Source: an uncultured Gammaproteobacteria bacterium (GTDB taxonomy: Bacteria > Patescibacteriota > Microgenomatia > Levybacterales > GWA1-39-11). From it: a stretch of 64,000 bases of DNA. The notes under the pieces were generated by a model. It had not been told where the DNA came from, did not search any database, and was given only the letters and a program-made list of their open reading frames with translations. How positions within the stretch are numbered: position 1 is the first letter of the stretch; each line of letters starts with the position of its first letter. Both the position numbers and the translations under genes were made by a program. Location: assembly GCA_964448725.1 (NCBI GenBank), contig CAYVAJ010000004.1, forward strand, positions 17,535 to 81,534, read 5' to 3'. Of this stretch, positions 2,922-62,157 are shown piece by piece.

Positions 2922-4361
2922 TTAACTACGACCATTAGTTAATTTCGGTTCCTCCTTCCAGTAAGGGTTTGCTTGTTCAAAGGTATGTGTTGTTCTATAG
3001 AGTGTTGCTTCATCAAAATGTTTACCGAGTATTTGCATACCGACCGGAAGTCCGTCTACAAATCCAGCAGGTACTGATATTCCTGGAACACCAACAAGAT
3101 TTGCATGTACAGTAAAAATGTCTGACAGATACATTTGTAATGGATCGCTTGTTTTCTCTCCTAATTTCCAAGGGAGAGAAGGAGATGATGGAGTAATCAA
3201 GACATCAACTTTTTCAAACGCTTCATCAAAATCATTTTTCAGAAGCGTTCGGACCTGCATTGCCTTTTTATAATACGCGTCATAGTATCCAGCAGAAAGG
3301 ACATATGTTCCAAGCATAATTCTTCGTTTGGCTTCTTCGCCAAAATCATTGCGTTCATTGCCATAGCGAATACCAGTATATCGTGCAAGATTTGATGATA
3401 CTTCTGCAGTTTGGATTACATAATACACTTCGATTGCATACTGGGTATGCGGAAGGGAAATATCAATTATCTCAGCTCCTTGAGATTCGTAAAATTTGAG
3501 CGCATCATGAATATGATCTTTAATACGAGAATCTAGTCCTTCAATAAAATATTCTTTCGGAACGCCGATTTTTAGTCCTTTTACTCCATTTCCAATATTT
3601 GCAGTATAATCTGGTACATCTTTTGATGGAGTTGTTGCATCCATTGTGTCTCTTCCTGCAGTAACGTTCAATACGAGCGCATTATCTTCAACTGTTTTTG
3701 TAAAGTGTCCAATAGAGTCAAGAGAGGATGCCATTGCAATCACTCCATAGCGACTGACACGTCCGTATGTTGGTTTCAGTCCGACAGTATTGGTAAAGCT
3801 TGCTGGGAGCCGAATAGATCCACCTGTATCAGTACCTGTTGCCATGAGACTCATACCGGCTGCAACAGATGCAGGAGATCCGCTTGATGATCCTCCAGGA
3901 ACGTACTCAGTATTATATGGATTTGCGGTTGCTCCAAAATCTGAGTTCTCTCCACTTGACCCATGTGCCCATGCATCAAGATTTGTTTTGCCTAAAATTA
4001 CTGCCCCTGCATCTTTTAATTTCTTGACAACTGTTCCATCGTATTGCGGGATATAGTGTTCAAGCACTTTTGATGCCGCAGTTGTCCGAATGTCTTTAGT
4101 AACAAACAAATCTTTTAATGCGACTGGAATCCCAAGCAGCGGCTTATCCTTGTCCAAGGTCCGACCTTGGTCAGCACGCAGCTTGTCTGCGGTCTCTGCT
4201 TGTTGTAGCGCTTCTTCTTCAGTTACGGTTAAAAATGCATTAATCTCGGTGTCATATTTTTCAATTTGACCAAGATATGCTTTTGTTAGCTCAACTGCAC
4301 TTATTTCTTTTGCCAGCAATTTCTTTTTTGCGCTAGCTATTGTTAAGTTTTTAGTGTCCAT
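2922..4361 (-). CDS. gatA: Glu-tRNA(Gln) amidotransferase subunit A (amidase signature family); carries an in-frame REP-like palindrome insertion
   Basis: 479 aa. Amidase signature GGSSSGS plus LLGIPVALKD motifs. The palindrome CCAAGGTCCGACCTTGG at 4154-4170 is translated in frame as QGRTLD. Confidence 0.9.
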   Translation of the reverse strand: MDTKNLTIASAKKKLLAKEISAVELTKAYLGQIEKYDTEINAFLTVTEEEALQQAETADKLRADQGRTLDKDKPLLGIPVALKDLFVTKDIRTTAASKVLEHYIPQYDGTVVKKLKDAGAVILGKTNLDAWAHGSSGENSDFGATANPYNTEYVPGGSSSGSPASVAAGMSLMATGTDTGGSIRLPASFTNTVGLKPTYGRVSRYGVIAMASSLDSIGHFTKTVEDNALVLNVTAGRDTMDATTPSKDVPDYTANIGNGVKGLKIGVPKEYFIEGLDSRIKDHIHDALKFYESQGAEIIDISLPHTQYAIEVYYVIQTAEVSSNLARYTGIRYGNERNDFGEEAKRRIMLGTYVLSAGYYDAYYKKAMQVRTLLKNDFDEAFEKVDVLITPSSPSLPWKLGEKTSDPLQMYLSDIFTVHANLVGVPGISVPAGFVDGLPVGMQILGKHFDEATLYRTTHTFEQANPYWKEEPKLTNGRS

Positions 4362-5145: not shown

Positions 5146-5955
5146 TTATATCTCAATACCAAGCTTTTTTACAATCGAATTGTGTGCTTTTTTCTCAATT
5201 GTGTCATCAAGTGGTGTCAGTTCGATAGGTTTTGAATATTTTACTTCGAGTGCTTTCTGAATGAGAAAATCTGCAATATGAGGATTCTTTGGAAGTAGTG
5301 GGCCATGAAAGTAACATCCAATTGCGTTTTTATAGACTACACCCTCAGTTCTGTCGATTCCGTTATTGCCATTGCCTTTTATAACCGTTGCAAAAGGCTT
5401 TGCTGTTTTTCCCAAAGTAGTACGTCCACCATGATTTTCAAATCCCACAATATAGGAAAATGGAGAATTGAAAGTTGAAAGTTGAGAGTTTAAATTCTCC
5501 CAATTCACTTTTGCAACAACATTTCCAATGAGCCGGCTCTCTTGTGGTCCTGGATGTGTTGTTTCAATATCAAATATGCCGACTCCTTCAATTCGTTTTC
5601 CTTCCGATGGTTCATAATATTTACCCATTAATTGAGGTGAGCCACAAACAAATAATGAGGGAGCATTTTGTTCGATCAAATTAATTATGCTGTTGGCCTT
5701 CTTCCCTTTTAAATCACGCATAACTATTTCTTGTTCACGATCTTGTGCACCGCCGCCAAATAAGAGGTTAATGGTTGATAGTTCTTGGTCTGTAGTATCT
5801 GGAGTAATGGGGAGAATTTTTACATCAATTCCTCTCCACTCACTTCTTTTCTGTAATACGAGTATATTCCCTCGGTCTCCGTATGTACTCATTAAATCTG
5901 GATAAAGCCAACCGATGATTAGAGAAAAGTTACTAATTTTTGGTTTATTGTTCAT
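5146..5955 (-). CDS. gatD: CobB/CobQ-type glutamine amidotransferase, probable lipid II isoglutaminyl synthase glutaminase subunit GatD
   Basis: 269 aa GATase-like protein immediately downstream of a MurT-like Mur-ligase gene. The pairing is characteristic of the MurT/GatD complex. Confidence 0.55.
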   Translation of the reverse strand: MNNKPKISNFSLIIGWLYPDLMSTYGDRGNILVLQKRSEWRGIDVKILPITPDTTDQELSTINLLFGGGAQDREQEIVMRDLKGKKANSIINLIEQNAPSLFVCGSPQLMGKYYEPSEGKRIEGVGIFDIETTHPGPQESRLIGNVVAKVNWENLNSQLSTFNSPFSYIVGFENHGGRTTLGKTAKPFATVIKGNGNNGIDRTEGVVYKNAIGCYFHGPLLPKNPHIADFLIQKALEVKYSKPIELTPLDDTIEKKAHNSIVKKLGIEI

Positions 5956-5957
5956 GG

Positions 5958-7340
5958 TTAAAGAATTTCCTTTCCGGTTAATATCTTTCGTAACTCAAGC
6001 ATGGCTGAGTATGTAGGGAGTATGAATGCAGTGTCTCCTTCAGGTGTCGCTTGTACTAACTCGTTAATTGCTTTTTTAGGATTCTCAAAAATTGTAACTG
6101 TAGAATTGTAATAATCCTTTTCTAGAGAATATTTCATTCGAACCGCCATGTCATATGCTCTGTCACCGGTAACAATGATTTTACCAGCGACATTTACTAA
6201 TTCTTCAAAGTCCACATCCCATATCCAAGATACATCTCGTCCATCAGGAATTCTATCATTCAAGGCAAGTAAAACAGTACAAGGTCGGACCTTGGTATTG
6301 TTTTGTGGTTGTACGGAATTTTTCAGGCTCGTACCAAGGTCCGACCTTGGTATAGTAGTCTCTGTAATAACACTGATTGATTGATTGAATCCAGCGGGGT
6401 TTTTTGAGAGGATCATAAAGAAATCACGATTTTTATAGGTGATTTTTTCTTGTCTTCCAAATGCCGAGGTAAATGACGCAAGTGATTTGCCAATCTCTTT
6501 ATATGAAATGTCAAATGCTTCTCGAGCTGTTTTTAATGCCGCTTGTAAATTGTACATATTATAAGTACCAGCAAGAACGACAGGGATAGATTCATCAATT
6601 TTATCTTTAATGTTTTCATTTGTAAATTTACAATTAGGGCAGGTATATTTTCCTAAATGGGAATATGCAATTTTTGAAAAAAGTAACTTGGTTCCGCATT
6701 GAGGACAATGAGTAGAGTCAGTATCATGGGTAGTTTCTTTTTTTGAAAAGTACTTGTTAGGAATAGAAAAATAAAATGTTTTACTCGTTGTGCTTTTTCT
6801 TAAATATCGTATCTCAGGATCATCTGCATTGAGTATAAGTTGTGTATCAGTTGTTAGCTTTTTCAGTGCTTTTTGCCAATTTCTAGCTATGGTATGTACT
6901 TCTCCATATCGGTCAAGCTGATCACGGAAAAGATTTAACAATACGATTGCGCGAGGAGTCATCTGAGATAATATGCGGGGAAGATTATTTTCGTCAACTT
7001 CAAAAATAGCCACATCATAGCGTAGTTTTCCTGTAACTGAAGCGTAGCGGATTAAGCTTGTTGCAAGTCCATTCACGAGATTTGCTCCTTCTTCGTTTTG
7101 AAAAACACGTAATCCATTTTTCTCTAAAATATGTCGTAAAATTTTAGCTGTTGTTGTTTTACCATTTGTTCCAGCAACAAGAATTATTGATAGATTTTTA
7201 CTGGATAAAAAATCCTGTATAAAGGTGGGATTTACTTGTAATGCAATATGTCCAGGCCAGGTAGAACCGGATCCAAGACCGAATTCTTTTATTACAGCAC
7301 TGGTGAATTTTCCGGCGAAAAATGAAAGTAATGTTTTCAT
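5958..7340 (-). CDS. murT: Mur ligase family protein MurT (lipid II isoglutaminyl synthase); contains two in-frame inverted REP-like palindromes
   Basis: 460 aa. P-loop VAGTNGKTTTAKIL, Cys4 ribbon CPQCGTKL...CPNC typical of MurT, and a C-terminal DUF1727-like region. Palindromes at 6279-6297 and 6332-6352 are translated as NTKVRPCT and IPRSDLGTS. Confidence 0.65.
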   Translation of the reverse strand: MKTLLSFFAGKFTSAVIKEFGLGSGSTWPGHIALQVNPTFIQDFLSSKNLSIILVAGTNGKTTTAKILRHILEKNGLRVFQNEEGANLVNGLATSLIRYASVTGKLRYDVAIFEVDENNLPRILSQMTPRAIVLLNLFRDQLDRYGEVHTIARNWQKALKKLTTDTQLILNADDPEIRYLRKSTTSKTFYFSIPNKYFSKKETTHDTDSTHCPQCGTKLLFSKIAYSHLGKYTCPNCKFTNENIKDKIDESIPVVLAGTYNMYNLQAALKTAREAFDISYKEIGKSLASFTSAFGRQEKITYKNRDFFMILSKNPAGFNQSISVITETTIPRSDLGTSLKNSVQPQNNTKVRPCTVLLALNDRIPDGRDVSWIWDVDFEELVNVAGKIIVTGDRAYDMAVRMKYSLEKDYYNSTVTIFENPKKAINELVQATPEGDTAFILPTYSAMLELRKILTGKEIL

Positions 7341-11104: not shown

Positions 11105-11181
11105 GGGGGTGTAGCTCAGTTGGTTAGAGCGCTTCCCTGTCACGGAAGAGGCCGCGGGTTCGAGTCCCGTCACTCCCGCCA
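11105..11181 (+). tRNA. tRNA-Asp (anticodon GTC), CCA encoded
   Basis: Manual cloverleaf: acceptor GGGGGTG/CACTCCC, D-arm GCTC-AGTTGGTTA-GAGC, anticodon arm CTTCC-CTGTCAC-GGAAG (GTC), T-arm GCGGG-TTCGAGT-CCCGT, discriminator G, CCA. Confidence 0.85.
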
Positions 11182-11400
11182 CGTCAAACGTGGCTTGCAA
11201 TAGAGCGAGTCGCGTATGACGCGAACGCACTTCGGCGCGTTACACTTGCTCAGTGCAAGTAACAAACCGAACAGGGAGAAAGTTAAGACGAGAAGTTTAT
11301 CCCGATAAACATCGGGAAGTCCCGTCACTCCCGCCACGTCAAATGTGGCTTGCAAATAAAGCGAGTTATGTCTGACGCGAATGTGTTTCGATGTGTTATT
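11163..11400 (+). repeat. Degenerate tandem duplication (about 155-bp period) beginning with the last 19 nt of tRNA-Asp
   Basis: AGTCCCGTCACTCCCGCCACGTCAAA(C/T)GTGGCTTGCAA... occurs at 11163 and again at 11318. Similarity continues for about 70-100 nt at roughly 75% identity. Confidence 0.6.
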
Positions 11401-12893: not shown

Positions 12894-15800
12894 ATGCACT
12901 CCCGCAAAAAAAAGTTTAAAGACTATTGGGAATTCGCTGAACTACAAGACAAAAAAGTCCGCATTGCTATTGCCATCTCTGCTTTAGGACTTTTGCTCTT
13001 TATCGCCTTCGCACTTACTTTTCCTTTTTATGATAATCTCTTTACTCGATTATTTCCGAAATCTCCTTCTCTTGCGGACGTAACAGCTCCAACAGTTGTA
13101 CAGTCAAATACTGCTACCGTTTCTTCTGGGAGTGATGTGTCTATTTCATGGGGGAGTCCAACATCAAATGGAAATTTCCTCATTGCAGTATTAGCAGCGC
13201 AGAGCGGAGATGAAGCATTATCGATATCTCAAGCGCCACAAGGATGGACATTAGTATCGGATACTATTAATGAGGAAGTAAGACAGTGGGTATATGCCTA
13301 TGCGAATGCTCCAGAACAGAGTGGAGAAGTAAAATTCACCCTCTCTTCAGGAGTAAAATCATCACTCGTGGTTGCAGAATATAAAGATGTTGCAAAAGAA
13401 AATGCTATAGAAACTCAGAATTCTTTAGTAGGAAATAATGATTCTCCCACTGGATCTGTTGATCCAAATACTGATTATAATTTAGTAATTGCAGCAGTAA
13501 GTTCGGTTGTAACAAGCAGTGAAAGCGCCAGTTTTAATAATGCTACTAATGACTTTTCTCTTGTAGGTCAAACATCAACAACAGGAGATGCTGTTAATAT
13601 CGCAACTGCATTGTTTAGTTCGTTTGTTGCCAATCAAGAACCTGTTAATAATTCCGTAACTATTGGATCAGGTACTCAATGGATACATACAATGGTAGCT
13701 ATAAAGCCTGTTGTACCTATCCCGACCTATACTCCTATTCCCAGTAAAGAACCAGAACCAACACCAGAGACAGAACCTGAGTTTTTACTTCAAGGATTAG
13801 ATCCTGAAAACACACAACAGAGTGGTCTGAGAAGTCTTGCGCTTGAGAGTACACAAATTTCGGGTACAACCTATTATGTAGATTGTCAAAACGGAAATGA
13901 TAGTAATAATGGAAGATCAGAGGGTGCTGCATGGAAATCATTAAATAAAATTAATAATGCCACATTAAATCCAGGAGATGGAATTCTATTAAAACGAGAT
14001 TGTTCATGGACTGGAACCTTGGATGCTGCGTGGAATGGTACTGCTCAAGAACCTATTACAATCGGTGCATATGGAGAAGGTGTGCTCCCTACGATTAAAT
14101 ATGACGGATCAAAAGGCGGTGGACCAGCTGTTAAAGTATCAGGATCATATGTCGTAATTGATAGTCTGAAAGCTACACTGACCAATCCCAATAGAAGTTC
14201 TGATTGTACATTAGCAGATGGGCAAAAACAGCATTTTGGTTATTATCAAGGCTTTAATTTATCTGGTCATCATCTTACCCTGCAAAACTCAGAGGCTACA
14301 GGCAATTCGTTGGGAGTTTTCACTACAGATTCCAGTCACCATAATAAAATACTGAACAACCATATCCATCATAACGATGGTTTATGGAGAATTGGCCCAA
14401 TTCCTCCAGGATCAATGGGTGGTATGGGTATGAATTTGCATGGCGATGATCATGAAGTTGCACATAATTTCTTTGAAAAAAATGATGCAAATTGTGATCC
14501 CCCAGACCATACGCATAGAGGGTATAGTGCAGCAATTGAGCTATATAATGCTAGTCGTGCGCACGTACATCATAATAAAATGGTAGGACATCGAAAGCAC
14601 TTTGAAATGGGTAAGAATAGCGATGAAATATCTGACGATAATATCTTTGCCTATAATTTAATTGTCAGTAATTTGGCAAATGCAAAAGGTCCTAATATTC
14701 ATGGCGCAGGAAATAAATTCGGTCCTGTTAAAAGGACAACAGTAGTCAATAATACTATATATCTTGTGGGTTCAGGGAATACTCAAGCACTCAATTGTGG
14801 GTGTACAGATGGCGCAACAATACGAAATAATATATTTTGGGCAGAAGAAAAAGTCGCATTTTTTAACGGTACATACACAGAATCTAATAATATTTACTGG
14901 GATAGTGATGGAAATCCAAATGCTCAAAATTTGAGTTTGCACGCTACTTCAAAAAAGACTAATCCGCAGTTTGTGAAGGCTGCTGTCAATGATGGTGACT
15001 TTCGTTTGAAAGCAGGGAGTCCTGCAATTGATGCCGGTATTTCAGTGGGATATGATTTAGACGTTGAAGGAGTATCTGTTCCACAAGGCTCAAAAGTTGA
15101 TATCGGTGCAATTGAATATACTGGTCAGGTTGTAACAACTCCAACCCCAACTGCAAGTACTGTTACCCCTACTCCAGGCGTTCAAGAACCATTCAGTGGT
15201 TCACGGATTTCGCTTCCAGGTACCATCCAAGCAGAAGATTTTGATAATGGCGGTGCTACTGTTGCATATGTTGATAATGATACAGGCAACAATGGGAATA
15301 TATATAGACAAACAGATGTTGATATTGAGGCTACGACTGACACTGGGGGAGGGTATAATCTTGGCTGGACTCGGCCAGGTGAGTGGGTAGAATATAGCGT
15401 TAATGTCTCATACTCAGGTTCTTACACGATAGGAACACGAGTAGCATCAAATGGAGGCGGCGGAGTATTTCATATAGAAGTTGATGGTACAGATGTAACT
15501 GGTCCAATGACCGTGCCAAATACAGGAGGTAATCAAATTTGGCAGACAGTTGAAAAAACAGGTGTACAGCTTACTGCAGGACAACATATTGTTCGTCTCT
15601 CATTTGATAATAATGGCGCAACTCAAGGTGTAGGCAATTTTAATTATATGACCTTTACTTTTGATCCTGGTCCTCAAACGCCGTACACAGGTACTCCTAT
15701 TTCTCTTCCAGGCATAATACAAGCTGAAGACTTTGATAATGGGGGTGTTATGGCTGCTTATTTTGATCAAGATGCAGGCAACAAGGGTAATGTGTATAGG

Positions 15801-18800
15801 GAAACAGATGTTGATATAGAAGCAACGACTGACACTGGTGGAGGGTATAACCTTGCTTGGATGTGGCCTAATGAATGGGTAGAGTATACAGTAAATGTAA
15901 CAGAAACAAGTACATATACCGTTGGAGCACGAGTCGCCTCCAATGGAGGTGGGGGAGTGTTTCATATAGAAGTTGATGGGCAAGATGTAACCGGTTCAAT
16001 GACTGTCCCGAGCACAGGAGGAAATCAGGTTTGGCAAACAGTTGAAAAAACCGGAATTCAATTAAGTGCTGGACAGCATATTATCCGATTGTCAATGGAT
16101 AGCAGTGGAGCACAGCAAGGAATTGCCAATTTTAATTATCTAGAATTTACTCAAGACACATCTACTAGTCCAGTACCATCCACCTCACAGGAATATACAT
16201 TATCCGGATCAGTATATGTCGATGTAAATAGAAATGGGGTAAAAGATACTGATGAATTAGGCCATAACGGAGCTGAGGTTACGGTATCAGGCGGATTATC
16301 AGCTAGTACCAATGCATCCGGGCTTTATACATTAACAGTTCCTGCTGCAGTATATACTGTTACTATTACCATACCTGATGGATATGAGGGAACAACTACA
16401 AATCCATTGTCTATTTCAGTCTCTGCAAATACTTCGGCGAACTTTGGTATTGCCCCAACAGCTACTGGAGGTAGAACAAATTCTGTCTTCACAGTGAATG
16501 CAGCTAAGACAGGTACTGAATTGAATGGACAACCTTTTCAAGTTGTTGGTATTCGTGTATCAAATGCACTTATTAATGACGCTAAAACACAACAACTCAT
16601 AGATAACCTTGATGTATTCAGAACTTATGGTATTAATACCGTTAGCGTTTTCTTCCAAGGTTCACGATTTGGTGACATCAAAGGCTATAGAGAAGATACA
16701 ACACTAAATCCTACCTACGCTGCTCGGATGGCACGAATTATTGAAGAAGCTGATAAACGTAAGATGGTCGTTCTAGTGGGAGTTTTGTATTATGGCGATG
16801 CAACCTTTGCAAAATGGGATAGTTGGGGACAAACTGAGGCAAACAGTGCAGTTGCTAATACTGTTCAGTGGCTCAAAGATAATAATTATCGCAATGTATT
16901 TATCGATGTTGATAACGAACAAATGTCACCGTTTGATAGTCAAAAACTCATTGCAGCTGGAAAAGCAGTTGATGCATCCTATGTAATTGGTTCTGGTGGC
17001 AAAATAACGCCATCAAATGCTGACCTATCTTTGCACCAAGGAGGCAAAAATATAACCGGTAAACCATATATTGAATCTGAAGGAACACCGCAAGGATATT
17101 GGGGTGCATATAGCAGACAGTCAGGAGACACACAATATCGAAATATTGGCATTTATACGAGTGATTTAAAATCTGCATGGTTGTCTGAAACTTCTAGTTT
17201 ATTGAATCAAGGAAAAGGATATATGGGTGCATCAACCTGGTTACAGGCCGACCTTCCAGAGGGACCAAATCACATACCTGGTGGAAATGGGACATCAGCA
17301 GATCCTGGGATTAAATTCTGGTTAGAGCATGTAAAGAGTTTGGTTGGGCCGTATGAGCCATCAGGTATTGGAGAGGAGACTACTCCAACCCCAACTCCAA
17401 GTGCTATTACCCCTACTCCTACTCAACCACCAACTGGGGGAACAGGGGCATTTTTGGAAAACAACGGTCAGCTAGTTATTGAGGTAGAGGATTATAATGA
17501 TATTTTTCCATCTACATTTAATAACTATACACAAACACACAATTGGGAAAAGAAAACAAATATTCCAGACTATAGTGGAAGCGGATTTATGCATAATATA
17601 CCAGATGAGCGAGGAGAGGATGGAGTAGGTCCTAATTCACCTCGAGGAAAAGGTGGACCTGAAATGCGGTATCCAATCAAGATATCAACTCCTGGAACAT
17701 ACAATGTCTGGGTAAGAGGGTATACTACGGGAGGAGAGTCAAACGGAGTACATATCGGGGTTGATGGGGTAATGACAGGTACAGAAGCTGGAGCTTCAAA
17801 TATGTCAGGGTTTAGACCTAAAGAATCGTGGATTTGGGAAAGTGCAAGAAAAGAAGGATATACGCTCCCTGCAACTCTCAATCTTACTGCTGGTTATCAT
17901 ACACTTAATGTCTGGGGAAGAGATGATGGATTTAGAATGGATAAAATAGTATTACGAATAGGAAGTGGTGTCCCATCAGGGACAGGACCTGCCCAGAGTG
18001 CGCGAGAAGCCATACCAACTCCAATAATTACACCAACTCCCACACCTGTGGTTACCACAACTCCCACACCTACTCCAAGTGTTCAAGCACCATTTACGGG
18101 AACTCCTATTTCGTTACCTGGAACAATCCAGGTAGAAGACTTTGATAATGGTGGTGCAAATGTTGCGTACTTTGATACGTCAGCAGGTAATAACGGTGGA
18201 GTATATCGAGATACAGATGTTGATCTTCAAGCTACTACTGATACTGGAGGAGGATATGGTCTTGAGTTTACAAGATCTGGAGAATGGTTAGAGTACACTG
18301 TAGATGTTGCTGAGGGCGGTACTTATGATATTGGTGTACGTGTTGCCTCTAAAGTAGTTGGTGGTGCATTCCATATAGAGATTGATGGGCAAGATGTAAC
18401 TGGGCCGATGTATGTACCAAATACTGGTGATTGGCAAACATGGACAACAATCGAGAAAACAGGTATACAGCTTACTGCAGGAGAACATGTAGTCAGATTA
18501 TCATTAGATAGCAGTGGTGAGCAGGCAGCTATTGGAAATATCAACTATATTACATTCACGAAAGTTGTCACAATTCCTACCTATACACTCTCAGGTACTG
18601 TATATGTAGATGCAAATAATAATGGTATACAAGATACAGATGAGGCTGATTATGCAAATGCAATTATTGAACTTTATGAAGGACCTGAAGCGACAGATAT
18701 TCCTTACCACACAGCAGAAACCAATACAGCCGGAGCGTATACTTTCAACACATTAAATCAAGGAGTATACACAGTATCACTTCTAATTCCTGATGGATAC

Positions 18801-21800
18801 AGTGTTACTACAGCTATCCGTCAAGTAGTCTCGCTTACAGCAGATACTATAGTGAATTTTGGTATCGCATCCACACAAACACCTACTATTACTCCTACTC
18901 CTGTAAGTCCTTCAAATCTTCTAAAGAATGGAGGTCTTGAGAGTAGCACTACTGTTTGGGGGTTATATGGGGGTGCAAGTATAATGCAAGGTACTTCACA
19001 TGGTGGTAGTAAAGCTATTCGTGTAGGTAATGCAAGTGGTGGGGGTGAATCAGGTGCCGAGCAAGCTGTTGCTGCACAGCCAGGAAAGACATACTCACTT
19101 ACTGCCTGGGGTATGATGAGTAATTCAGCTCAGAGTGATAAAGGCGCTGTGGGTATTAAATTTAAGAACAGTGCAGGAGATGTTCTTGGTAATGAAACAT
19201 CCATCTTTATTCCTGAGACTGATTGGACTCAGAAACAAGTGTCTGCAATTGCACCTGCTAACACGGCAAGCGTTGTAACTTATGTATATAAAGAAGTGGG
19301 AGATAATACTTTCTTATACATTGATGACTTTACGCTTACAGAAAGCGGAGAAGTTACTACTCCAACCCCAACATTGACAAATACTCCGACACCTACTGTT
19401 GCACAAAATACACCGACTCCAACGCCAGTACAACTATCTGATTTAGTAGTTAGTGATATAACATGGAGTCCATCTAATGCTACTGTAGGACAAAATGTTA
19501 CTTTTGGTGCTACCTTAAGAAATATTGGATCAGCTGCAACTCCTGATGCAACTGCCCATGGAGTAGCGTTTTATGTGAATGGAGTAAAAGTATCTTGGTC
19601 GATAAATCATAATGCGTCTATTGCACCAGGTGACTCAGTAACAGTCACTGCTAATGGTGGTCCTGAAGGTTCACGATTCTGGACAGCGACAGCAGGTACA
19701 CATGAAATTGAGGCAGTAGTTGATGAGCCTGGCAGGATTACGGAAAGTAATGAGGAAAATAATACTGCAAGCAACCAATTTACCATTGTTGCTGCTCCTA
19801 CGGTTACTCCGACTCCGACATCTGTTCCTACTTACACAGTAGATGGAACTGTATATGTAGATACAAATAAAAATGGTGTGCAAGATACAGATGAGGCAGG
19901 GTATGCAGATGCAGTTGTTATGATATCAACTAACCCTGAAACAGCAGGTATAAGCGATGAAAATGGGCGTTTTATTCTTACTGGAATAAATCAAGGAGTA
20001 TACACAGTTACTCTTTCCGCACCTAATGGGTATACTATCACGACTTCCAATCCAATTGAAGCAGTTGTAACTGCAAATACTACAATCAATTTTGGAATCG
20101 GTCTTATTCCAACTCCAACCCCTACAGCTCCTGTTATAACGCCTACATTAACAACAACTCCTACCCCTACTGCAACAGCTACTCCGATTCCAACTGTTAC
20201 TCCTCTTCCTACGGGTACTCAGTCAGTAACATACTCGGTCCCATGGACAAGTGAAGATGTACAAGAAACAAATACATCATTTACGGTAAATGACACCACT
20301 CTTCGAATTGGTGGATGCGGACAGACAGCTTGTTATACTGGTCTTCGGTTTACGAATATTAACCTGCCTAAAGGTTCTATAATTAATTCTGCATATGTAG
20401 AGTACAATGCAGCCCAAAGTAACTCACTTGCAAATGTAGCGGTAGAGATTGCAGGACATGATTCGGATAATAGTTCGCTTTTCTCTTCATCCAATAAACC
20501 TTCACAAAGAACACTTACAGCTGCTAAAGTGACTCCTCAAACTGATACAGTAGTTGCTGCTAATCAGTGGTATCGTTTAGGTAATATCTCATCAATAGTG
20601 CAAGAAGTCATAGATAGAGACAATTGGCAAACTGGAAATAGTATTTCACTTATTATTCGTGCTACATCTCCAACAGAGCAAGATACAGGAATTCTTGCAC
20701 ATAGTTACGATGGAAATTCTGAGAGAGCACCACGCTTAGTAATTATATATAGTAGTCCGATAGGCGGAGAAGAACCAACAAATACTCCTGTCCCTATTAC
20801 AGAGCCTACTGAAGCACCTATTCCAACGTATATTCTTTCAGGTACTGTCTATGTAGATACCAATAAAAACGGCGTAAAAGATATAGAAGAATCAGGTCAA
20901 AGTAATATAACAGTATCTCTGTCAAATGGAGCATCGGTTTCAACTGATGCACAAGGTAGATATCAATTTACTGATTTAATCCAAGAACTCTATACTGTAA
21001 CTGCAACAGTACCAAATGGATATACATTGACTACTCAGTCATCAATCCCTGTATCACTTATAGCTGATACAAGTGTACACTTTGGAATGGTACAAGTACC
21101 AATAGCCACGGTAACTGCAACATCTGCACCAACCCCTACCCCTATTCCATGTTCACTTGTATCAGCCAAATGGCAAACAACCAATAATCAAATAGATGAA
21201 GGTGAGATTGTAGGACTTGAAGTTATAACCTCAGGAAACTGTGTTGGAGAAGAGCTGGAGTTTGAGGTACGAGAGGACGATGGAATTATGGGGTCTGATG
21301 CAACAAATATTATTCCAGCAACAGTACCAATAATCGGAAATAACGCACAGACTTCATGGATAGTTGAATGGCAGCAGGATTGTATGGGATTTGCACTTTG
21401 CCAAACTCCGGAATATTACTATATTGTTAGAATTGTGGGAACCACAACTGAGATACGCTCAACAAATCCAACACTTAAAGTGCAGCGTACCAACAAAGCA
21501 CGGTTTGTGACTATTCCTCATGTGGATGTGACTCAAGATACTGTGAAAATTACATGGAAGACAAGCCATGATATGTCATCACAGATTAGCTATGGATTAT
21601 CTGCAGAATCCCTTGTAAGTACAGATGAGATAAATACCAATATACGAGCAGCTGATCATGCTATTACAATTGACAACTTACTTCCTTGTACTGCGTATCG
21701 GTATCAGGTACGTTCACGGGAAATAACTGGTGATATGGTAGAGAGCCCTTTTGCTCAATTTATAACAAAAGGTTGTGAAGGAAACTCGTCAGTACTTGCA

Positions 21801-27967: not shown

Positions 27968-29650
27968 GTGCCCACACAACAGTCTAAATTGAAACGTACA
28001 AAATATATATTTGTTTCAGGTGGTGTTATCTCAGGAATAGGGAAAGGAATCACCGCCGCATCCATCGCCCTTCTTCTTAAGCAAGCAGGTTATCATATAG
28101 CCCCCATAAAATTTGAAAATTATCTCAATCTTGACGCTGGTACTATTAATCCTATAGAACATGGTGATCCATTTTTGTGCGAAGACGGCACAGAGACAGA
28201 TATGGATATTGGAACGTATGAAAAATTCCTTGATGAGAACATGGGGAAAAATAATTTCGTGACCATGGGCAAGATTTATCACACTGTAATTGAGCGGGAA
28301 AGACGGTTTGAATACAACGGTGAAGACGTAGAAGCAATTCCTCATATTACTGATGAGATTATCAACAGAATAAAAACAGTAGGCAATAAAAAAAATGTTG
28401 ATATTGTTATCGTAGAACTTGGCGGAACAGCTGGAGAATATCAAAATGTGTTCTATTATGAAGCATCTCGAATACTGGCATTAAAATATCCCGGTGATGT
28501 AGTCCATATTCATGTGAGTTATGTGCCAACTCCTGGTCATCTTGGGGAACCAAAAACAAAACCAACACAACTGTCTGTGAGAACGCTCAATTCTATGGGA
28601 ATACAGCCAGATTTAATTGTCGCGCGTTCTGACCGTATGCTCGATAAACGCCGCCGTGACCGTTTTGCATTATTTTGCAATATGCATTCCGAAGACATAA
28701 TTTCAGCTCCCGATGTTGATTCTGTATACCGAGTACCATTTGTATTACATGAACAAGGGGTAGAAAAAAGAGTATTGGAAAAGCTGGGACTACCGATTAA
28801 AAAACCAGATCTTAGAAAATTTGAGAAATTACTTGCAAAAATTGAAAAATCAAAAGATAAGACGATTGAAGTAGCAATTGTTGGCAAATATTTCGGAACT
28901 GGAGAATACCAACTGAAAGATTCCTATGCTGCATTATTTGACGCAATTGATCATGCAGGATGGGAAATAGGGGTAACTGTCAAGACACGGTGGGTAAATG
29001 CAGAAAAAGTAGAGGCTAATGGTCCTGAAAAAGAAATTGGTACACCTGATGGGATCATAGTACCAATTGGATGGGGAGAACGAGGGTCTGAGGGAATGAT
29101 TGCTGCAGCTAGTTATGCACGAACTGCAAAAATTCCATACCTTGGTCTGTGTTTTGGTATGCAGTTAGCAGTAGTTGCGTTCGCACGCGATTTAATGAAA
29201 TTTAGGAAAGCTAACAGCGAAGAAATTGATCCAAAAACAAAGTATCCAGTAATTCATTTTATCTCAAATCAGAAAGAATTAATTGCGCAGCGGGCATATG
29301 GCGGGACAATGCGGCTTGGAGGCTGGGATGCAAAAGTGAAGCCAGGAACCCGCGCTCATGAGATATATACTAAATATAATGCTATGGATAACAAAGCAAA
29401 AAGCATTGCAAGCGAACGGCATAGGCATCGGTATGAATTTAATAATATTTATTCAGATGATTTTGAAAAAGCAGGTCTTGTGATTAGCGGACGATCAGTA
29501 AAAGAGAATTTAGTCGAGATTATAGAACTTCCTGAATCAGAACACCCTTTTTATATGGGAACCCAAGGTCACCCTGAGTATAAGAGTAGACCAGGTAAAC
29601 CACACCCTTTCTTTATCGAATTCCTCAAAGCAGCAGAAAAACAAAGATAG
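27968..29650 (+). CDS. pyrG: CTP synthase
   Basis: 560 aa. YIFVSGGVISGIGKGITAASIA at the N-terminus and a C-terminal glutamine amidotransferase with GLCFGMQ. Confidence 0.9.
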   Translation: MPTQQSKLKRTKYIFVSGGVISGIGKGITAASIALLLKQAGYHIAPIKFENYLNLDAGTINPIEHGDPFLCEDGTETDMDIGTYEKFLDENMGKNNFVTMGKIYHTVIERERRFEYNGEDVEAIPHITDEIINRIKTVGNKKNVDIVIVELGGTAGEYQNVFYYEASRILALKYPGDVVHIHVSYVPTPGHLGEPKTKPTQLSVRTLNSMGIQPDLIVARSDRMLDKRRRDRFALFCNMHSEDIISAPDVDSVYRVPFVLHEQGVEKRVLEKLGLPIKKPDLRKFEKLLAKIEKSKDKTIEVAIVGKYFGTGEYQLKDSYAALFDAIDHAGWEIGVTVKTRWVNAEKVEANGPEKEIGTPDGIIVPIGWGERGSEGMIAAASYARTAKIPYLGLCFGMQLAVVAFARDLMKFRKANSEEIDPKTKYPVIHFISNQKELIAQRAYGGTMRLGGWDAKVKPGTRAHEIYTKYNAMDNKAKSIASERHRHRYEFNNIYSDDFEKAGLVISGRSVKENLVEIIELPESEHPFYMGTQGHPEYKSRPGKPHPFFIEFLKAAEKQR

Positions 29651-30059
29651 AAGATATTTATTACTTATTATTTATTATTTAAACCTAAAAAGATTTTTTA
29701 TTATACGTAATACTTAGTTATTTATTATTTATTACTTATTATTGATTATTTATTATTGATGTTTAGTTTTTAAGCCTATTCGATATATGTTATTTAATAT
29801 TTTACCGTGAACTACGAACAGTGAACCGTGAACGCTATTTATTACTTATTATTGATAATCAATACTAACTCCCTAACTCCATATACTTTATAACTTTATG
29901 AACTTTACAAACTTTATAACTAAAACGACTTTATGAACTTTACAAACCTTAAGAACTTTACAAACCCTAATCCCTAGACTCTAACCCTATACCTTACGTC
30001 TTATACCCATCTCATCTCATTCTTGCAAACTACGCATGTTTCACGTATAATTACCTCTT
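29651..30059. repeat. AT-rich intergenic region with short tandem/dispersed motifs (ATTACTTATTATTGAT x2, GTGAAC x4, GAACTTTACAAAC x3)
   Basis: Direct reading. Exact 16-mers at 29731 and 29841. GTGAACTACGAACAGTGAACCGTGAAC at 29806-29834. AACTTTATGAACTTTACAAAC repeats at 29905-29975. Confidence 0.6.
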
Positions 30060-36903: not shown

Positions 36904-37000
36904 TTCTCATTGATGCACAGGTTAAAGCATACAAATTAGGGAGAGGAAAAAATAGAGTAATAAAAGAGTGAGAATAAATAATTATAAGAAAAAATTCCAA

Positions 37001-37127
37001 GAAAAAAGCACCTTGGGGTAATAGAGAATAGATAACCCAAGTGACTTTTTTCTGCTGCTTATGCAGCGAAGCTCCATAGGCGTATCTTCCTCTTCACATC
37101 AAACGTGTTTGACCTTACGGTGCTTTA
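37001..37127. repeat. Copy 1 of a two-copy ~120-nt structured element (candidate small ncRNA / MITE-like repeat)
   Basis: Shares with 41185-41301 the outer helix AAGCACC...GGTGCTT, the internal hairpin GCTGC-TTAT-GCAGC (CCTGC-TCAT-GCAGG in copy 2, compensatory), the first hairpin CTTGGG.../...CCCAAG, and the conserved CCATAGGC and CCTTACGGTGCTT boxes. A U-run follows the hairpin on both strands. Confidence 0.5.
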
Positions 37128-41079: not shown

Positions 41080-41184
41080 ACAATCCTCCTTTTAGCGTAC
41101 GAACGACAATAGAAAGAATTATACTATGATAAAAAAAGAAAGTCCATACTATAAGTTTATTATTTAACAATTAAATTAACTCAC

Positions 41185-41301
41185 GAAAAAAGCACCTTGG
41201 GGTATATGAGAGGATATATCCTAAGTCACTTTTTTCGTCCTGCTCATGCAGGAGTAGTGCCATAGGCAAATTTTTCTCTATTGTTACCTTACGGTGCTTA
41301 T
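41185..41301. repeat. Copy 2 of the two-copy ~120-nt structured element (candidate ncRNA / MITE-like repeat)
   Basis: See copy 1. The same box order is present with compensatory changes in two helices. Confidence 0.5.
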
Positions 41302-41863: not shown

Positions 41864-41921
41864 ACAAACGCTACTAATGGAGGATTATATCAGATTGTAT
41901 TCTATATGAAACAATAAATTA

Positions 41922-41958
41922 CACCTTCCAGGTGGTTTAGGTTCACACCTCTTCTTTA
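41922..41958 (-). promoter_or_regulatory. Shared 37-nt upstream motif containing the palindrome CACCTGGAAGGTG (copy 1, upstream of 41312..41863)
   Basis: CACCTTCCAGGTGGTTTAGGTTCACACCTCTTCTTTA is identical to 45646-45682. It lies just upstream of a -35/-10-like region of the downstream minus-strand gene. Confidence 0.45.
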
Positions 41959-45609: not shown

Positions 45610-45645
45610 AGTTCTAGTATATCAGAACAAAAGGGTTAATTATTC

Positions 45646-45682
45646 CACCTTCCAGGTGGTTTAGGTTCACACCTCTTCTTTA
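45646..45682 (-). promoter_or_regulatory. Shared 37-nt upstream motif (copy 2, upstream of 44461..45609)
   Basis: Identical 37-mer to 41922-41958. Confidence 0.45.
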
Positions 45683-54077: not shown

Positions 54078-54258
54078 ATCGCACCTATAGTAGGATATTG
54101 ATTACTTATTATTGATTATTGGATATTTTAAATTACTCTTACACCTTATGCCCTAAACCTAAAAACCTAATCTATAGTCCCCAATCAATAATCTACAATC
54201 AATAGAATATAATCTCCAGGGCTTGATTTTTTGTTATCAATTTGACCATACTAACAGT

Positions 54259-59134: not shown

Positions 59135-59329
59135 AGGTATGAATAGTTGCTACTTATAATTTATTACGTATTATTTATTATTGATGATCTATAATTAAAT
59201 TATTAAAATCATCTATGTAAAAAATATACGAAATATCCTCGAATTATTCAATATGACATACTATAACAAAGTATAGAAGAATCCCAAAATATGCAAAAAT
59301 TATCACTCTGTATGGTAGAATGATAGACG

Positions 59330-61309: not shown

Positions 61310-61323
61310 CCTTCATCCTCCAG

Positions 61324-61344
61324 ACCAAGGTCCGACCTTGGTCA
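61324..61344. repeat. REP-like perfect palindrome GACCAAGGTC-C-GACCTTGGTC (3' flank of the RAYT gene)
   Basis: Direct reading. The same palindrome family occurs at 62058-62077, 4154-4170, 6279-6297 and 6332-6352, with a degenerate copy at 61641-61655. Confidence 0.7.
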
Positions 61345-62010
61345 AGAATCTTCAAGTAGTAGTGGTCCGAGTATTTCTTCAGAGTTTTGATTAAAATCAT
61401 CTACAAATTTTTTATACTCATTCTGTGGAACAGCTTCAGAGTTTCCAGCAAAGTACTGGAGAATATCATCAGGATTTAGCCATGATGCACGCTTTAGTCC
61501 TAAAAAATTTGCATAGCTTGTGTATTTTGTGAAATCGATTTCAGAGTGTATATATGTTGGATTTAAATGAATATACCGAGTTAAATGAAGAAGATATTGA
61601 TCTGAGTCTATAATGCATGCTTTATATTTATTCTGAAACAAAGGTCCGACCCTGTCATATTTTTTATTAAAATACATTACGTATGCGGTCATCAATCGTC
61701 GCATAAGTTTTGTGATTCCGTTTGCTGTGATTTGTTTTACCAATAGGTGTATATGATTTGGCATTAAACAAAATGAAACAAGTACAACTTCTTCAGAAAG
61801 ATTAGATAAAAGAAATCTTAATTTGCGTTTAGGATTAACATTTATGTCTTGAATGAGGTCAAGTTTTGGTTGTAAATAAAGTTTTAAGTAAAAAAGAAAG
61901 ACAGCACAATCAGATTCATCAAGAAAAATAGTTCGCTTTTCAATCCCACGGTTATAAATATGGTAATAAGAATTCTCAAGATATGTTTTTACTACATTCC
62001 GAGCAGGCAT
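61342..62010 (-). mobile_element. HUH Y1 transposase, IS200/IS605 TnpA-like / REP-associated tyrosine transposase (RAYT)
   Basis: 222 aa. YHIYNRG... and HuH motif PNHIHLLV with a downstream catalytic Tyr region (QNKY). REP-like palindromes lie immediately at both ends of the gene. Confidence 0.7.
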
Positions 62011-62057
62011 ATTCTTGTTTCATTATGCTCCTTTTTACCATATAAATGTCAATATTG

Positions 62058-62077
62058 GACAAGGTCCGACCTTGGTC
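62058..62077. repeat. REP-like palindrome GACAAGGTCCGACCTTGGTC (5' flank of the RAYT gene)
   Basis: Direct reading. Followed by GGTCAAG as at the 61324 copy. Confidence 0.7.
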
Positions 62078-62157
62078 AAGTTGGAGTGAGGCGGTGGGTA
62101 GGGAGGTGATGTGCCGGGAAGGGGTTGCCTTCCCGGATTGGTGCTGTTTAATCGTTC

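What the first reader, a model, noticed from the sequence alone, without database searches (positions are those of the whole stretch)
6279..6352. Two inverted REP-like palindromes inserted in frame inside murT
TACAAGGTCGGACCTTGGTA (6279-6297) and TACCAAGGTCCGACCTTGGTA (6332-6352) lie 34 nt apart inside the MurT coding frame. They are translated on the minus strand as ...NTKVRPCT... and ...IPRSDLGTS..., with no frame disruption. The same palindrome flanks the HUH transposase at 61.3-62.1 kb. An in-frame palindromic-repeat insertion in an essential gene is reminiscent of Rickettsia palindromic elements and is unusual outside them.
Basis: seen in the sequence. Interest (0 to 1): 0.65.

Follow-up and report, generated by a model that had tools for sequence, protein, structure and literature searches.

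The report
In-frame palindromic repeats inside murT
Two copies of a short palindromic repeat, the same one that flanks a nearby transposase gene, sit in frame inside the essential cell-wall gene murT of a Candidate Phyla Radiation bacterium, apparently read through as a floppy ~22-residue surface loop, and such translated repeats prove common in that group.

Summary
The palindrome (T)ACCAAGGTCSGACCTTGGT(A) occurs five times in the window, against 0 expected by chance. Two copies lie in inverted orientation inside murT, one inside gatA, and two flank a Y1/HUH transposase gene.

Orthologue alignments at protein and codon level show net in-frame insertions: +22 aa in MurT and +5 aa in GatA. An AlphaFold model (pLDDT 91) places the MurT insert in a low-confidence coil between a helix and a strand.

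The organism is a Candidatus Levybacteria (CPR/Patescibacteria). Homologues of the transposase in 7 genome loci carry this palindrome at their gene ends. Among 80 metagenome loci chosen by protein homology alone, 12 carry it and most others carry variant palindromes of the same build. This is the REP/RAYT (REPtron) pattern.

The same 17-mer lies in frame inside housekeeping genes of many CPR classes, including carB, fmt, purL, topA, ileS, valS, uvrB and ligA. Reading-frame use is strongly skewed: PRSDLG 27, QGxTL 14, TKVxPW 2.

Intragenic REPs were already described outside Rickettsia (Di Nocera 2013). So this is a new variant of a known kind: a CPR REP/RAYT system whose repeats are mostly intragenic. 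Mobilisation by the transposase and translation of the insert are inferred, not shown.

The parts
6278..6297 (.). REP copy 1 inside murT (TACAAGGTCGGACCTTGGTA; centre G on + strand; one mismatch to the 17-mer). Read on the - strand as NTKVRPC (frame c, with W changed to C).
6298..6331 (.). 34-nt spacer of the doublet, read as ...TSLKNSVQPQN...
   Evidence: No significant similarity to the spacer of the L101 doublet.
6332..6352 (.). REP copy 2 inside murT (TACCAAGGTCCGACCTTGGTA; centre C, so inverted relative to copy 1). Read as IPRSDLGT (frame a).
6278..6352 (-). REPIN-like inverted doublet of 75 nt (25 codons). It gives a net +22 aa relative to the nearest orthologues. As single-stranded DNA it folds into one long hairpin.
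   Evidence: -19.7 kcal/mol, z = -6.3, 0 of 200 shuffles as stable
5958..7340 (-). murT (lipid II isoglutaminyl synthase subunit MurT), intact 460-aa ORF that hosts the doublet. The insert is residues about 330-353.
5146..5955 (-). gatD (GATase_3), partner of murT; context only.
4151..4173 (.). Single REP copy inside gatA (tgtCCAAGGTCCGACCTTGGtca), read as DQGRTLD (frame b). It is a 5-codon net insertion relative to orthologues and to P. aeruginosa GatA 4WJ3.
2922..4361 (-). gatA (Amidase family, 479 aa), intact host ORF of the single copy.
61342..62010 (-). RAYT-like Y1/HUH transposase gene (222 aa). HUH motif is NHIHL and the Tyr motif is YIHLNP; both are invariant in the family alignment.
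61322..61344 (.). REP copy abutting the stop codon of the transposase gene (agACCAAGGTCCGACCTTGGTca).
62056..62078 (.). REP copy about 50 nt upstream of the transposase start codon (tgGACAAGGTCCGACCTTGGTca).
61638..61659 (.). Degenerate palindrome-like stretch inside the transposase ORF (AAGGTCCGACCCT), encoding the conserved RVGPLFQ motif. Probably resemblance rather than an inserted copy.

Best explanation
The 75-nt segment is an inverted doublet (REPIN-like) of a short perfect-palindrome repeat. That repeat belongs to a REP/RAYT system of Candidate Phyla Radiation bacteria. The cognate enzyme is most likely the single Y1/HUH tyrosine transposase at 61342-62010, which is bracketed by the same palindrome.

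Inferred mechanism, by analogy with E. coli TnpA-REP and IS200/IS605 TnpA: the enzyme recognises the palindrome folded as a hairpin in single-stranded DNA, cleaves it, and rejoins it elsewhere.

In a genome that is roughly 80-90% coding, most landings fall inside genes. Copies survive only if they keep the reading frame and fall in a permissive loop. The 21-mer has no stop codon in any of its six frames, so it is pre-adapted to be read through.

In murT the doublet adds about 22 residues as a disordered loop between helix 315-329 and strand 354-359, just upstream of the invariant LNDRIPDGRD motif. In gatA a single copy adds 5 residues. Both genes stay intact and presumably functional.

Shown here: the repeat is real; these are net insertions; the insert sits in a loop; the transposase and the palindrome are associated and co-vary across many genomes; frame usage is biased. 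Inferred: catalysis by this transposase, translation of the insert, and neutrality of the insert.
For: Repeat and chance: five copies against 0 expected.

Insertion: orthologues lack it, and the GatA +5 aa is also seen against 4WJ3.

Loop: the gap against 7Q8E/6GS2, and coil with pLDDT about 50-55 at residues 330-353 in the AF2 model.

Hairpin: -19.7 kcal/mol, z = -6.3.

Enzyme: Pfam Y1_Tnp above cut-off. Its best NCBIfam match is REP-associated tyrosine transposase. HUH and Tyr are invariant. The profile hits ISDra2 TnpA 2XM3.

Association:
- tblastn finds homologues of the transposase (34-57% identity) next to this palindrome in 7 independent genome loci.
- In 80 metagenome loci picked only by protein homology, 12 carry this palindrome at the gene ends. 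Most others carry a different palindrome of the same build, repeated upstream, downstream and often inside the ORF.
- A sister Levybacteria genome has a 57%-identical transposase flanked by the variant AAGGTTSAACCTT.

Selection signature: 57% of 75 exact copies in CPR loci lie in ORFs of at least 150 aa, against 82% of random positions. Frames are a:27, b:14, c:2.

Recurrence at the same MurT loop:
- An independent doublet of the same palindrome in P0007/L101, with decay by a 15-nt in-frame deletion in P0004/L102.
- A different palindromic doublet (HPRG...PRGC) in other Levybacteria.

Precedent for intragenic REP dimers encoding 20-30 aa: PMC3733652.
Against: - No biochemical or population evidence of mobility here.
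- The transposase scores below NCBIfam's RAYT equivalog cut-off (36 against 80 bits). It is as close to IS200/IS605 TnpA as to E. coli TnpA-REP.
- The window copies lack the GTAG/CGTC tag typical of known REP superfamilies.
- Only one doublet occurs in the window, and doublet spacing is not conserved across loci (55 nt here, 22-30 nt elsewhere).
- In CarB the palindrome occupies a site of unchanged length, so simple insertion does not explain every copy.
- The same 17-mer in many CPR classes is unusual for REPs, which are normally lineage-specific.
- Copy number for the whole genome is unknown.
Confidence: 0.75

Rival explanations
1. The palindrome is a selected DNA or RNA signal, such as a DNA-uptake sequence, a binding site for a conserved CPR protein, or an mRNA hairpin. 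It accumulates in genes by mutation or gene conversion, and its link to the transposase is secondary.
For: The identical 17-19-mer occurs in many CPR classes. In carB and fmt it sits at the same codon positions in four genomes each, while flanking synonymous sites differ. In CarB it replaces a stretch of equal length rather than adding residues. The frame bias resembles that of uptake sequences within genes (comparison from general knowledge of USS/DUS).
Against: The palindrome variant changes with the transposase: each homologue is flanked by its own variant. This is expected for enzyme-substrate co-evolution and not for a phylum-wide signal. Density is low, at 5 per 64 kb. The murT and gatA copies are lineage-specific net insertions absent from the closest orthologues. 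The copy in L102 is decaying. Only 2 of about 10 unbiased CPR-like CarB homologues keep the peptide. The 'conservation' is partly circular, because loci were retrieved by exact match.
Confidence: 0.1
2. The insert has been exapted: the extra MurT loop (and the GatA loop) now has a function, for example modulating the MurT-GatD interface, and is kept by selection on the protein.
For: The insert lies about 8 residues upstream of the invariant LNDRIPDGRD segment of the MurT C-terminal domain. About 15 of 94 homologues carry some insert in this loop.
Against: The inserts at this loop are unrelated in sequence between lineages. The model predicts disorder. The nearest orthologues do without it. One lineage is deleting it.
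Confidence: 0.05
3. The palindromes are mobile or generated by some mechanism other than the neighbouring Y1 transposase, such as another enzyme or replication template switching at hairpins. The flanking arrangement only reflects a preference of such repeats for that locus.
For: No activity data exist. The transposase is a distant member of the family. There are no target-site duplications or guide tetranucleotides to tie it to a known chemistry.
Against: Palindrome variant and transposase co-vary across dozens of loci, with copies upstream, downstream and inside the ORF carrying the same variant.
Confidence: 0.07
4. It is not an insertion or not real: either conserved coding sequence, or an assembly artefact or chimera.
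For: None found.
Against: Orthologues lack the residues. The ORF is intact and models confidently. The same palindrome is in frame in genes from many independent assemblies and studies.
Confidence: 0.01

Closest known systems
REP/REPIN-RAYT systems (REPtrons) of Proteobacteria: E. coli TnpA-REP, Pseudomonas, Stenotrophomonas, Marinomonas (PMC3116915, PMC8266576)
   Same: A Y1/HUH transposase gene, seen once in the window, is bracketed by the short palindrome that is dispersed in the genome. The inverted doublet with spacer folds as a hairpin (REPIN definition). The palindrome variant co-varies with the transposase. Perfect-palindrome REPs are a known group.
   Different: The protein is a distant subfamily, below the NCBIfam RAYT cut-off. 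The window copies have no GTAG/CGTC tag. More than half of the sampled copies are intragenic and read through, whereas classical REPs are overwhelmingly extragenic. The same 17-mer is shared across CPR classes. Copies also lie in frame inside the transposase ORF itself.
Intragenic REPs described by Di Nocera et al. 2013 (Opitutus terrae, Thauera, Xanthomonas, R. conorii; PMC3733652)
   Same: REP singles and dimers are inserted in frame in housekeeping genes. The dimers encode 20-30 aa. DNA-repair and translation genes are hit (uvrB, ligA, topA, ileS, valS here). There is recurrent insertion at about the same site in one gene.
   Different: There they are exceptions within mostly extragenic families that carry GTAG/CGTC tags. 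Here intragenic copies are the majority in the sample, the phylum (CPR) is new, and there is a strong reading-frame bias.
Rickettsia palindromic elements (RPE; Ogata et al. 2000, from general knowledge; cited in PMC3733652)
   Same: Palindromic repeats inserted in frame in essential genes of a reduced-genome bacterium, and tolerated as surface additions.
   Different: RPE-1-type elements are longer (about 100-150 bp), have no associated transposase, and have an unrelated sequence. The element here is a 19-21-nt palindrome or a 75-nt doublet with a cognate Y1 transposase.
IS200/IS605 TnpA (ISDra2 2XM3, IS608)
   Same: HUH and catalytic Tyr motifs align. The presumed chemistry is single-stranded hairpin recognition without target duplications.
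   Different: There is no IS structure, meaning no distinct left and right ends and no tnpB. The protein is longer (222 aa against about 140 aa). The repeats are dispersed without the gene.
DNA uptake sequences (USS/DUS) within genes (from general knowledge)
   Same: A short motif found inside coding regions, with frame preferences and placement in poorly constrained protein segments.
   Different: USS/DUS are not palindromes, occur about once per kb, arise without length change, and have no transposase link.

Membership tests
REP/RAYT system (REPtron) | Encodes a Y1/HUH tyrosine transposase with HUH and catalytic Tyr motifs | tested here: met
   PF01797 at 43.1 bits, above the cut-off of 23. 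H86, H88 and Y146 are invariant in 26 homologues. Motifs align to ISDra2 TnpA.
REP/RAYT system (REPtron) | Protein reaches the curated RAYT model (NCBIfam NF047646 equivalog) | tested here: not met
   It is the best and only NCBIfam hit, but at 36 bits against a cut-off of 80. E. coli TnpA-REP 4ER8 scores only E=0.25 with the family profile.
REP/RAYT system (REPtron) | Transposase gene flanked by the same palindrome that is dispersed elsewhere in the genome | tested here: met
   Window copies at 61325 and 62059 flank the gene, with others at 4154, 6279 and 6334. The same layout occurs in 7 genome loci. Variant palindromes take the same layout in most of 80 loci chosen by homology.
REP/RAYT system (REPtron) | Repeats are extragenic | tested here: not met
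   3 of 5 window copies are inside murT or gatA. 43 of 75 copies in CPR loci lie in ORFs of at least 150 aa.
REP/RAYT system (REPtron) | GTAG or CGTC tetranucleotide (guide) at the foot of the hairpin | tested here: not met
   Window flanks are GGTC/GGTA, not GTAG. In 98 CPR copies the outer positions give TACC...GGTA, with G at +11 in only 27%. A subset (carB, fmt) does read CTACC...GGTAG.
REP/RAYT system (REPtron) | Single-copy transposase and high copy number of repeats per genome | tested here: inconclusive
   One gene and 5 repeats in 64 kb. The rest of the genome was not available.
REP/RAYT system (REPtron) | Enzyme cleaves and rejoins the cognate single-stranded hairpin | not testable with these tools
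   Needs a biochemical assay such as the CST assay of PMC8266576.
REPIN | Two REPs in inverted orientation, with a spacer, able to fold into one hairpin | tested here: met
   Centres are G and C. The fold is -19.7 kcal/mol with z = -6.3.
REPIN | Doublets with a characteristic spacing are the over-represented replicative unit | tested here: inconclusive
   Only one doublet occurs in the window (55 nt start to start). Elsewhere doublets are 22-30 nt apart. Singlets are common.
Rickettsia palindromic elements | In-frame insertion in ORFs that stay intact | tested here: met
Rickettsia palindromic elements | Membership of the RPE sequence families of Rickettsia, with no associated transposase | tested here: not met
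   A cognate Y1 transposase is present. The element is 75 nt or a 19-21-nt single. The host is CPR. Sequence comparison with RPE consensus sequences was not run.
MITE | Terminal inverted repeats derived from an IS, plus target-site duplication | tested here: not met
   No direct repeat flanks 6278-6352. The unit is a self-complementary palindrome with no conserved asymmetric flanks.

The most novel reading that the evidence does not exclude
CPR/Patescibacteria may harbour a phylum-wide family of REP/RAYT systems whose palindromes live mainly inside protein-coding genes and are translated. They would then be a systematic source of the short loop insertions seen in CPR housekeeping proteins. The copies may also be kept uniform by the transposase (concerted evolution) rather than simply decaying. 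Two observations hint at this. First, each transposase gene carries the same palindrome variant upstream, downstream and at two recurrent in-frame sites inside its own ORF. Second, intact copies sit at the same codons of carB and fmt in several genomes.
Probability: 0.3. Interest if true: 0.75.

Novelty: new variant of a known kind. Interest (0 to 1): 0.6.

Why it matters
It extends REP/RAYT biology to the Candidate Phyla Radiation. No paper in the searchable library mentions it there.

It also shows a setting where 'extragenic' palindromes are mostly intragenic and read through, in genes as essential as murT, gatA, ileS, valS, topA and uvrB.

That gives a concrete, testable source for lineage-specific loop insertions in CPR proteins. 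It is a natural experiment on which peptide frames of a fixed DNA word proteins tolerate (PRSDLG much more than TKVGPW). It also offers a practical marker, since the repeats probably break assemblies: many transposase contigs are only 1-2 kb.

For annotation, it warns that such inserts are not frameshifts or pseudogenes.

Tried and rejected
- Literature: searches for RAYT plus CPR, for palindromic element / in-frame / Patescibacteria, and for the DNA word or the peptide PRSDLG found nothing relevant.
- Rfam on the whole window returned only four tRNAs and nothing at the palindromes.
- Viral contigs gave 0 exact matches to the 19-mer, so there is no evidence for phage carriage.
- PDB search with the single transposase sequence gave no meaningful hit. 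The family profile gave only weak hits.
- Homology of the murT spacer between the window and L101 is no better than shuffles: 418 of 1000 shuffles scored at least as high. A shared ancestral insertion is therefore not supported, and independent insertion is preferred.
- I tested whether inserts at the same sites in the sister genome L104 carry that genome's own REP variant (AAGGTTSAACCTT). They do not, so there is no support for in-situ conversion away from the transposase gene.
- I considered that CarB homologues P0241 (SRRRLD) and P0244 (SRLNLD) carry other REP variants at the carB site. Their DNA is not on record. Two homologues with DNA (L189, L190) are not palindromic there. Back-translation shows such peptides can always be written as palindromes, so the protein alone says nothing.
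- The 'conservation' of the carB and fmt copies is weakened by ascertainment, because loci were retrieved by exact match. Among unbiased homologues only 2 of about 10 keep the peptide.
Total counts and enrichment factors are therefore only rough.
Full report
**1. Observation**

Both lie inside a 460-aa ORF on the minus strand (5958-7340). Its translation runs straight through them...ITETTIPRSDLGTSLKNSVQPQNNTKVRPCTVLLALNDR....

The ORF is MurT. It has Pfam Mur_ligase_M plus MurT_C and matches S. aureus MurT 7Q8E/6GS2 at E=7e-56. It is followed by gatD.

The 17-mer CCAAGGTCSGACCTTGG with up to 2 mismatches occurs five times in the window, at 4154, 6279, 6334, 61325 and 62059. None appeared in any of 100 dinucleotide-preserving shuffles. 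Relaxing to a 19-mer with 3 mismatches adds nothing.

- Copies 61325 and 62059 bracket ORF 61342-62010 (-), a Y1/HUH transposase.
- Copy 4154 is inside gatA and is read as DQGRTLD.
- The central base is G in the first murT copy and C in the second, so the two are inverted.
- The three coding copies use three different reading frames.

**2. It is an insertion in a loop**

A search with MurT identifies the organism as Candidatus Levybacteria (CPR/Patescibacteria). The closest relatives are only about 65-70% identical.

In the alignment, most orthologues go from NPAGFNQS(I/L)SVxxxxxxx directly to TVLLALNDR, while the window has about 22 extra residues. Across 94 homologues the segment is 17-19 aa in 74 and 39 aa in the window.

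Codon alignments with syntenic loci fetched for five orthologues confirm this. L105 and L106 (P0002, P0005) have no insert. In gatA the window has 5 extra codons, GAC CAA GGT CGG ACC TTG GAC, relative to L102, L105 and L106. The same 5-residue gap appears against P. aeruginosa GatA 4WJ3.

Against S. aureus MurT the insert falls in alignment gaps between the helix ending ...NASLSV and the strand YVISLND. An AlphaFold2 model built with a 93-sequence alignment has mean pLDDT 91.1 and pTM 0.90. The only poorly predicted stretch is coil at residues 330-353 (block means 55 and 51), between helix 315-329 and strand 354-359. All invariant MurT residues are retained.

**3. What the repeat is**

The transposase has the HUH motif (NHIHL) and a YIHLNP tyrosine motif, both invariant in 26 homologues. 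Pfam Y1_Tnp is above its cut-off. Its only NCBIfam hit is 'REP-associated tyrosine transposase', but at 36 bits against a cut-off of 80. A family profile reaches ISDra2 TnpA (E=0.005) and E. coli TnpA-REP (E=0.25). It is therefore a distant subfamily of the Y1 superfamily.

The family is large. At least 7826 proteins reach E<=1e-5, and all named close hits are Microgenomates: Davies-, Curtiss-, Shapiro-, Gottesman- and Levybacteria.

A scan of one genome per species for CAAGGTCSGACCTTGGT returned 100 stretches, the output cap. More than half come from CPR lineages of many classes: Kaiser-, Sacchari-, Parcu-/Paceibacterota, Levy-, Davies-, Taylor-, Vogel-, Yanofsky- and Moraniibacteria. The rest are single hits in large genomes, as expected by chance for a 17-mer in 596 Gb.

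In seven of these loci a homologue of the window's transposase (34-57% identity) sits next to the palindrome. There is one copy 23-70 nt upstream of the ATG and usually one at or just after the stop.

For a test that does not depend on the palindrome, I fetched 80 metagenome loci by protein homology alone. Twelve carry AAGGTCSGACCTT at the gene ends. Most of the others carry a different palindrome of the same build, for example AAGGTTSAACCTT, AGGGTCSGACCCT, AAAGGCCWGGCCTTT or CTGCAGGGCCAGGCCCTGCAG. These are repeated upstream, downstream and often inside the ORF.

A sister Levybacteria genome (that of L104) has a 57%-identical transposase flanked by AAGGTTSAACCTT. This one-enzyme, one-palindrome co-variation is the REP/RAYT (REPtron) pattern.

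The murT element, two inverted REPs with a spacer, folds as single-stranded DNA into one hairpin (-19.7 kcal/mol, z = -6.3). It therefore fits the REPIN definition of Bertels and Rainey (PMC3116915).

A logo of 98 CPR copies shows that the conserved unit is just the 19-21-nt perfect palindrome TACCAAGGTCSGACCTTGGTA, with no conserved asymmetric flanks. The window copies lack the GTAG/CGTC tag of the classical REP superfamilies.

**4. In-frame copies are the rule in this group**

In the CPR loci the same palindrome lies inside long ORFs that are recognisable housekeeping genes:

- carB: L007, L087, L096, L003
- fmt: L027, L053, L084, L093
- purL: L013, L094
- ligA: L091
- rnr (RNase R): L014
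- priA: L047
- topA: L038, L061, as doublets
- ileS: L077, a doublet
- valS: L081, a doublet
- uvrB: L079
- polX: L020
- recJ: L022
- a P-type ATPase: L019

Of 75 exact copies, 43 (57%) are in ORFs of at least 150 aa, against 82% of random positions in the same loci. Copies are thus depleted from genes but still mostly intragenic.

Frame usage is very uneven: PRSDLG 27, QG(R/P)TL 14, TKV(G/R)PW 2. The 21-mer has no stop codon in any of six frames, while the GTAG-extended form gives TAG in the rare frame. This is what selection on the encoded peptide would leave behind.

Other palindrome variants are also found in long ORFs, in 4 of 8 distal copies.

The transposase ORFs themselves carry in-frame copies of their own variant at two recurrent places, about codon 50-60 and about codon 150-160, and remain intact.

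**5. History at the murT loop**

MurT of the window is closest to the insert-less P0002 and P0005 (70%), not to P0004 and P0007 (65-66%).

P0007 (L101) has a doublet of the same palindrome at the same loop, with the second copy in another frame. Its spacer is no more similar to the window's than shuffled sequence. Two independent insertions are therefore the most economical reading.

P0004 (L102, 86% identical to P0007) shares that insert by descent. It has lost the first palindrome through a 15-nt in-frame deletion and has a substitution in the second. So copies decay.

Other Levybacteria carry a different palindromic doublet there (HPRG...PRGC; DNA TTCCACCCTCGAGGTGGAA ... ACACCTCGGGGGTGT in L108). 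The loop is a permissive site that has been hit repeatedly.

**6. Mechanism and its limits**

The best-supported account is that a RAYT-type Y1 transposase mobilises its cognate hairpin through single-stranded DNA, as shown in vitro for E. coli, S. maltophilia and Marinomonas enzymes (PMC8266576). In a coding-dense genome, survivors are the copies that preserve frame in tolerant loops. Catalysis by this protein, translation of the insert and its neutrality are all inferences.

Some observations do not fit simple insertion and decay:

- In CarB the palindrome occupies a stretch of unchanged length. Homologues read LKRKKLDAT or LRREALSRE there, with non-palindromic DNA.
- The copies in carB and fmt are intact in several genomes whose flanking synonymous sites differ.
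- Those loci were retrieved by exact match, however. Among homologues collected without the motif, only 2 of about 10 keep the peptide.
- The sister genome's murT and gatA inserts do not carry its own REP variant.

A selected-signal explanation (uptake sequence or protein-binding site) is therefore not excluded, but it is much less well supported than the REP/RAYT one.

**7. Comparison and novelty**

Intragenic, in-frame REPs are already documented outside Rickettsia. These include dimers encoding 20-30 aa, often in repair genes, in O. terrae, Thauera, Xanthomonas and R. conorii (PMC3733652).

What is not described in the searchable literature:

- a REP/RAYT system in CPR;
- the predominance of intragenic copies;
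- the shared 17-mer across CPR classes;
- the strong frame bias;
- copies inside the transposase ORF.

I rate it a new variant of a known kind, of moderate to high interest.

Noticed in passing
L118, L120, L135/L136, L153, L147, L181, L178, L166; also L006, L017, L067, L012: Many CPR RAYT-like genes carry in-frame copies of their own flanking palindrome variant inside the ORF. These sit at two recurrent sites, about codons 50-60 and about codons 150-160, and the ORF stays intact (e.g. L135 SLQGQALQ and LPAGPGPAGL). The same variant at 3-4 positions per locus suggests cis-acting spread or homogenisation.
   Followed up: partly
L007, L087, L096, L003 (carB); L027, L053, L084, L093 (fmt): The palindrome sits at identical codon positions of carB (LPRSDLGR, with no length change relative to homologues lacking it) and in an N-terminal extension of fmt in several CPR genomes. 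The centre base flips between TCG and TCC, both Ser. Flanking synonymous sites are diverged.
   Followed up: partly
L108:3001-4407 (MurT P0081): A second, unrelated in-frame insert (SVVSGQPAPLRGARPG) in another Levybacteria MurT is GC-rich and palindromic. It is flanked by a 10-nt direct repeat, TGTCAGTTGT, which looks like a target-site duplication of a MITE-like element.
   Followed up: no
L191:1434-2227 (genome of L104): A sister Levybacteria genome has a 57%-identical RAYT flanked by the variant palindrome AAGGTTSAACCTT: two copies upstream and two downstream. Its murT and gatA inserts do not contain that variant.
   Followed up: yes
window 61638-61659: Inside the window's transposase ORF, the codons for the conserved RVGPLFQ motif read AAGGTCCGACCCT. 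This is one mismatch from the 13-nt core of the enzyme's own palindrome, and the peptide resembles frame c (TKVGPW).
   Followed up: no
window 36998-37052 and 41182-41236: Two 55-nt copies (82% identical) of a hairpin-like element: AAAAAAGCACCTTGGGGTA...CCCAAGTGACTTTTTTC. They look like terminators and share a CCTTGG core.
   Followed up: no
window 41918-41958 and 45642-45682; 11163-11200 and 11318-11355: Two further near-identical short direct repeats of 41 nt (98%) and 38 nt (97%). The second pair starts at the 3' end of the tRNA at 11105-11178.
   Followed up: no
window 15100-21200: Large internally repeated genes: 300-nt and 95-nt repeat units with Thr/Pro-rich ACTCCAACCCCAAC linkers. These are probably surface proteins with repeated domains.
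   Followed up: no
window 29648-29860, 54096-54138, 59144-59200: An AT-rich motif with 14-nt period, TATTTATTACTTATTATTGATTAT, recurs in three places in the window.
   Followed up: no
one search hit table: Many homologues of the transposase sit on contigs of only about 1-2 kb. This suggests the flanking repeats routinely break metagenome assemblies at these loci.
   Followed up: no
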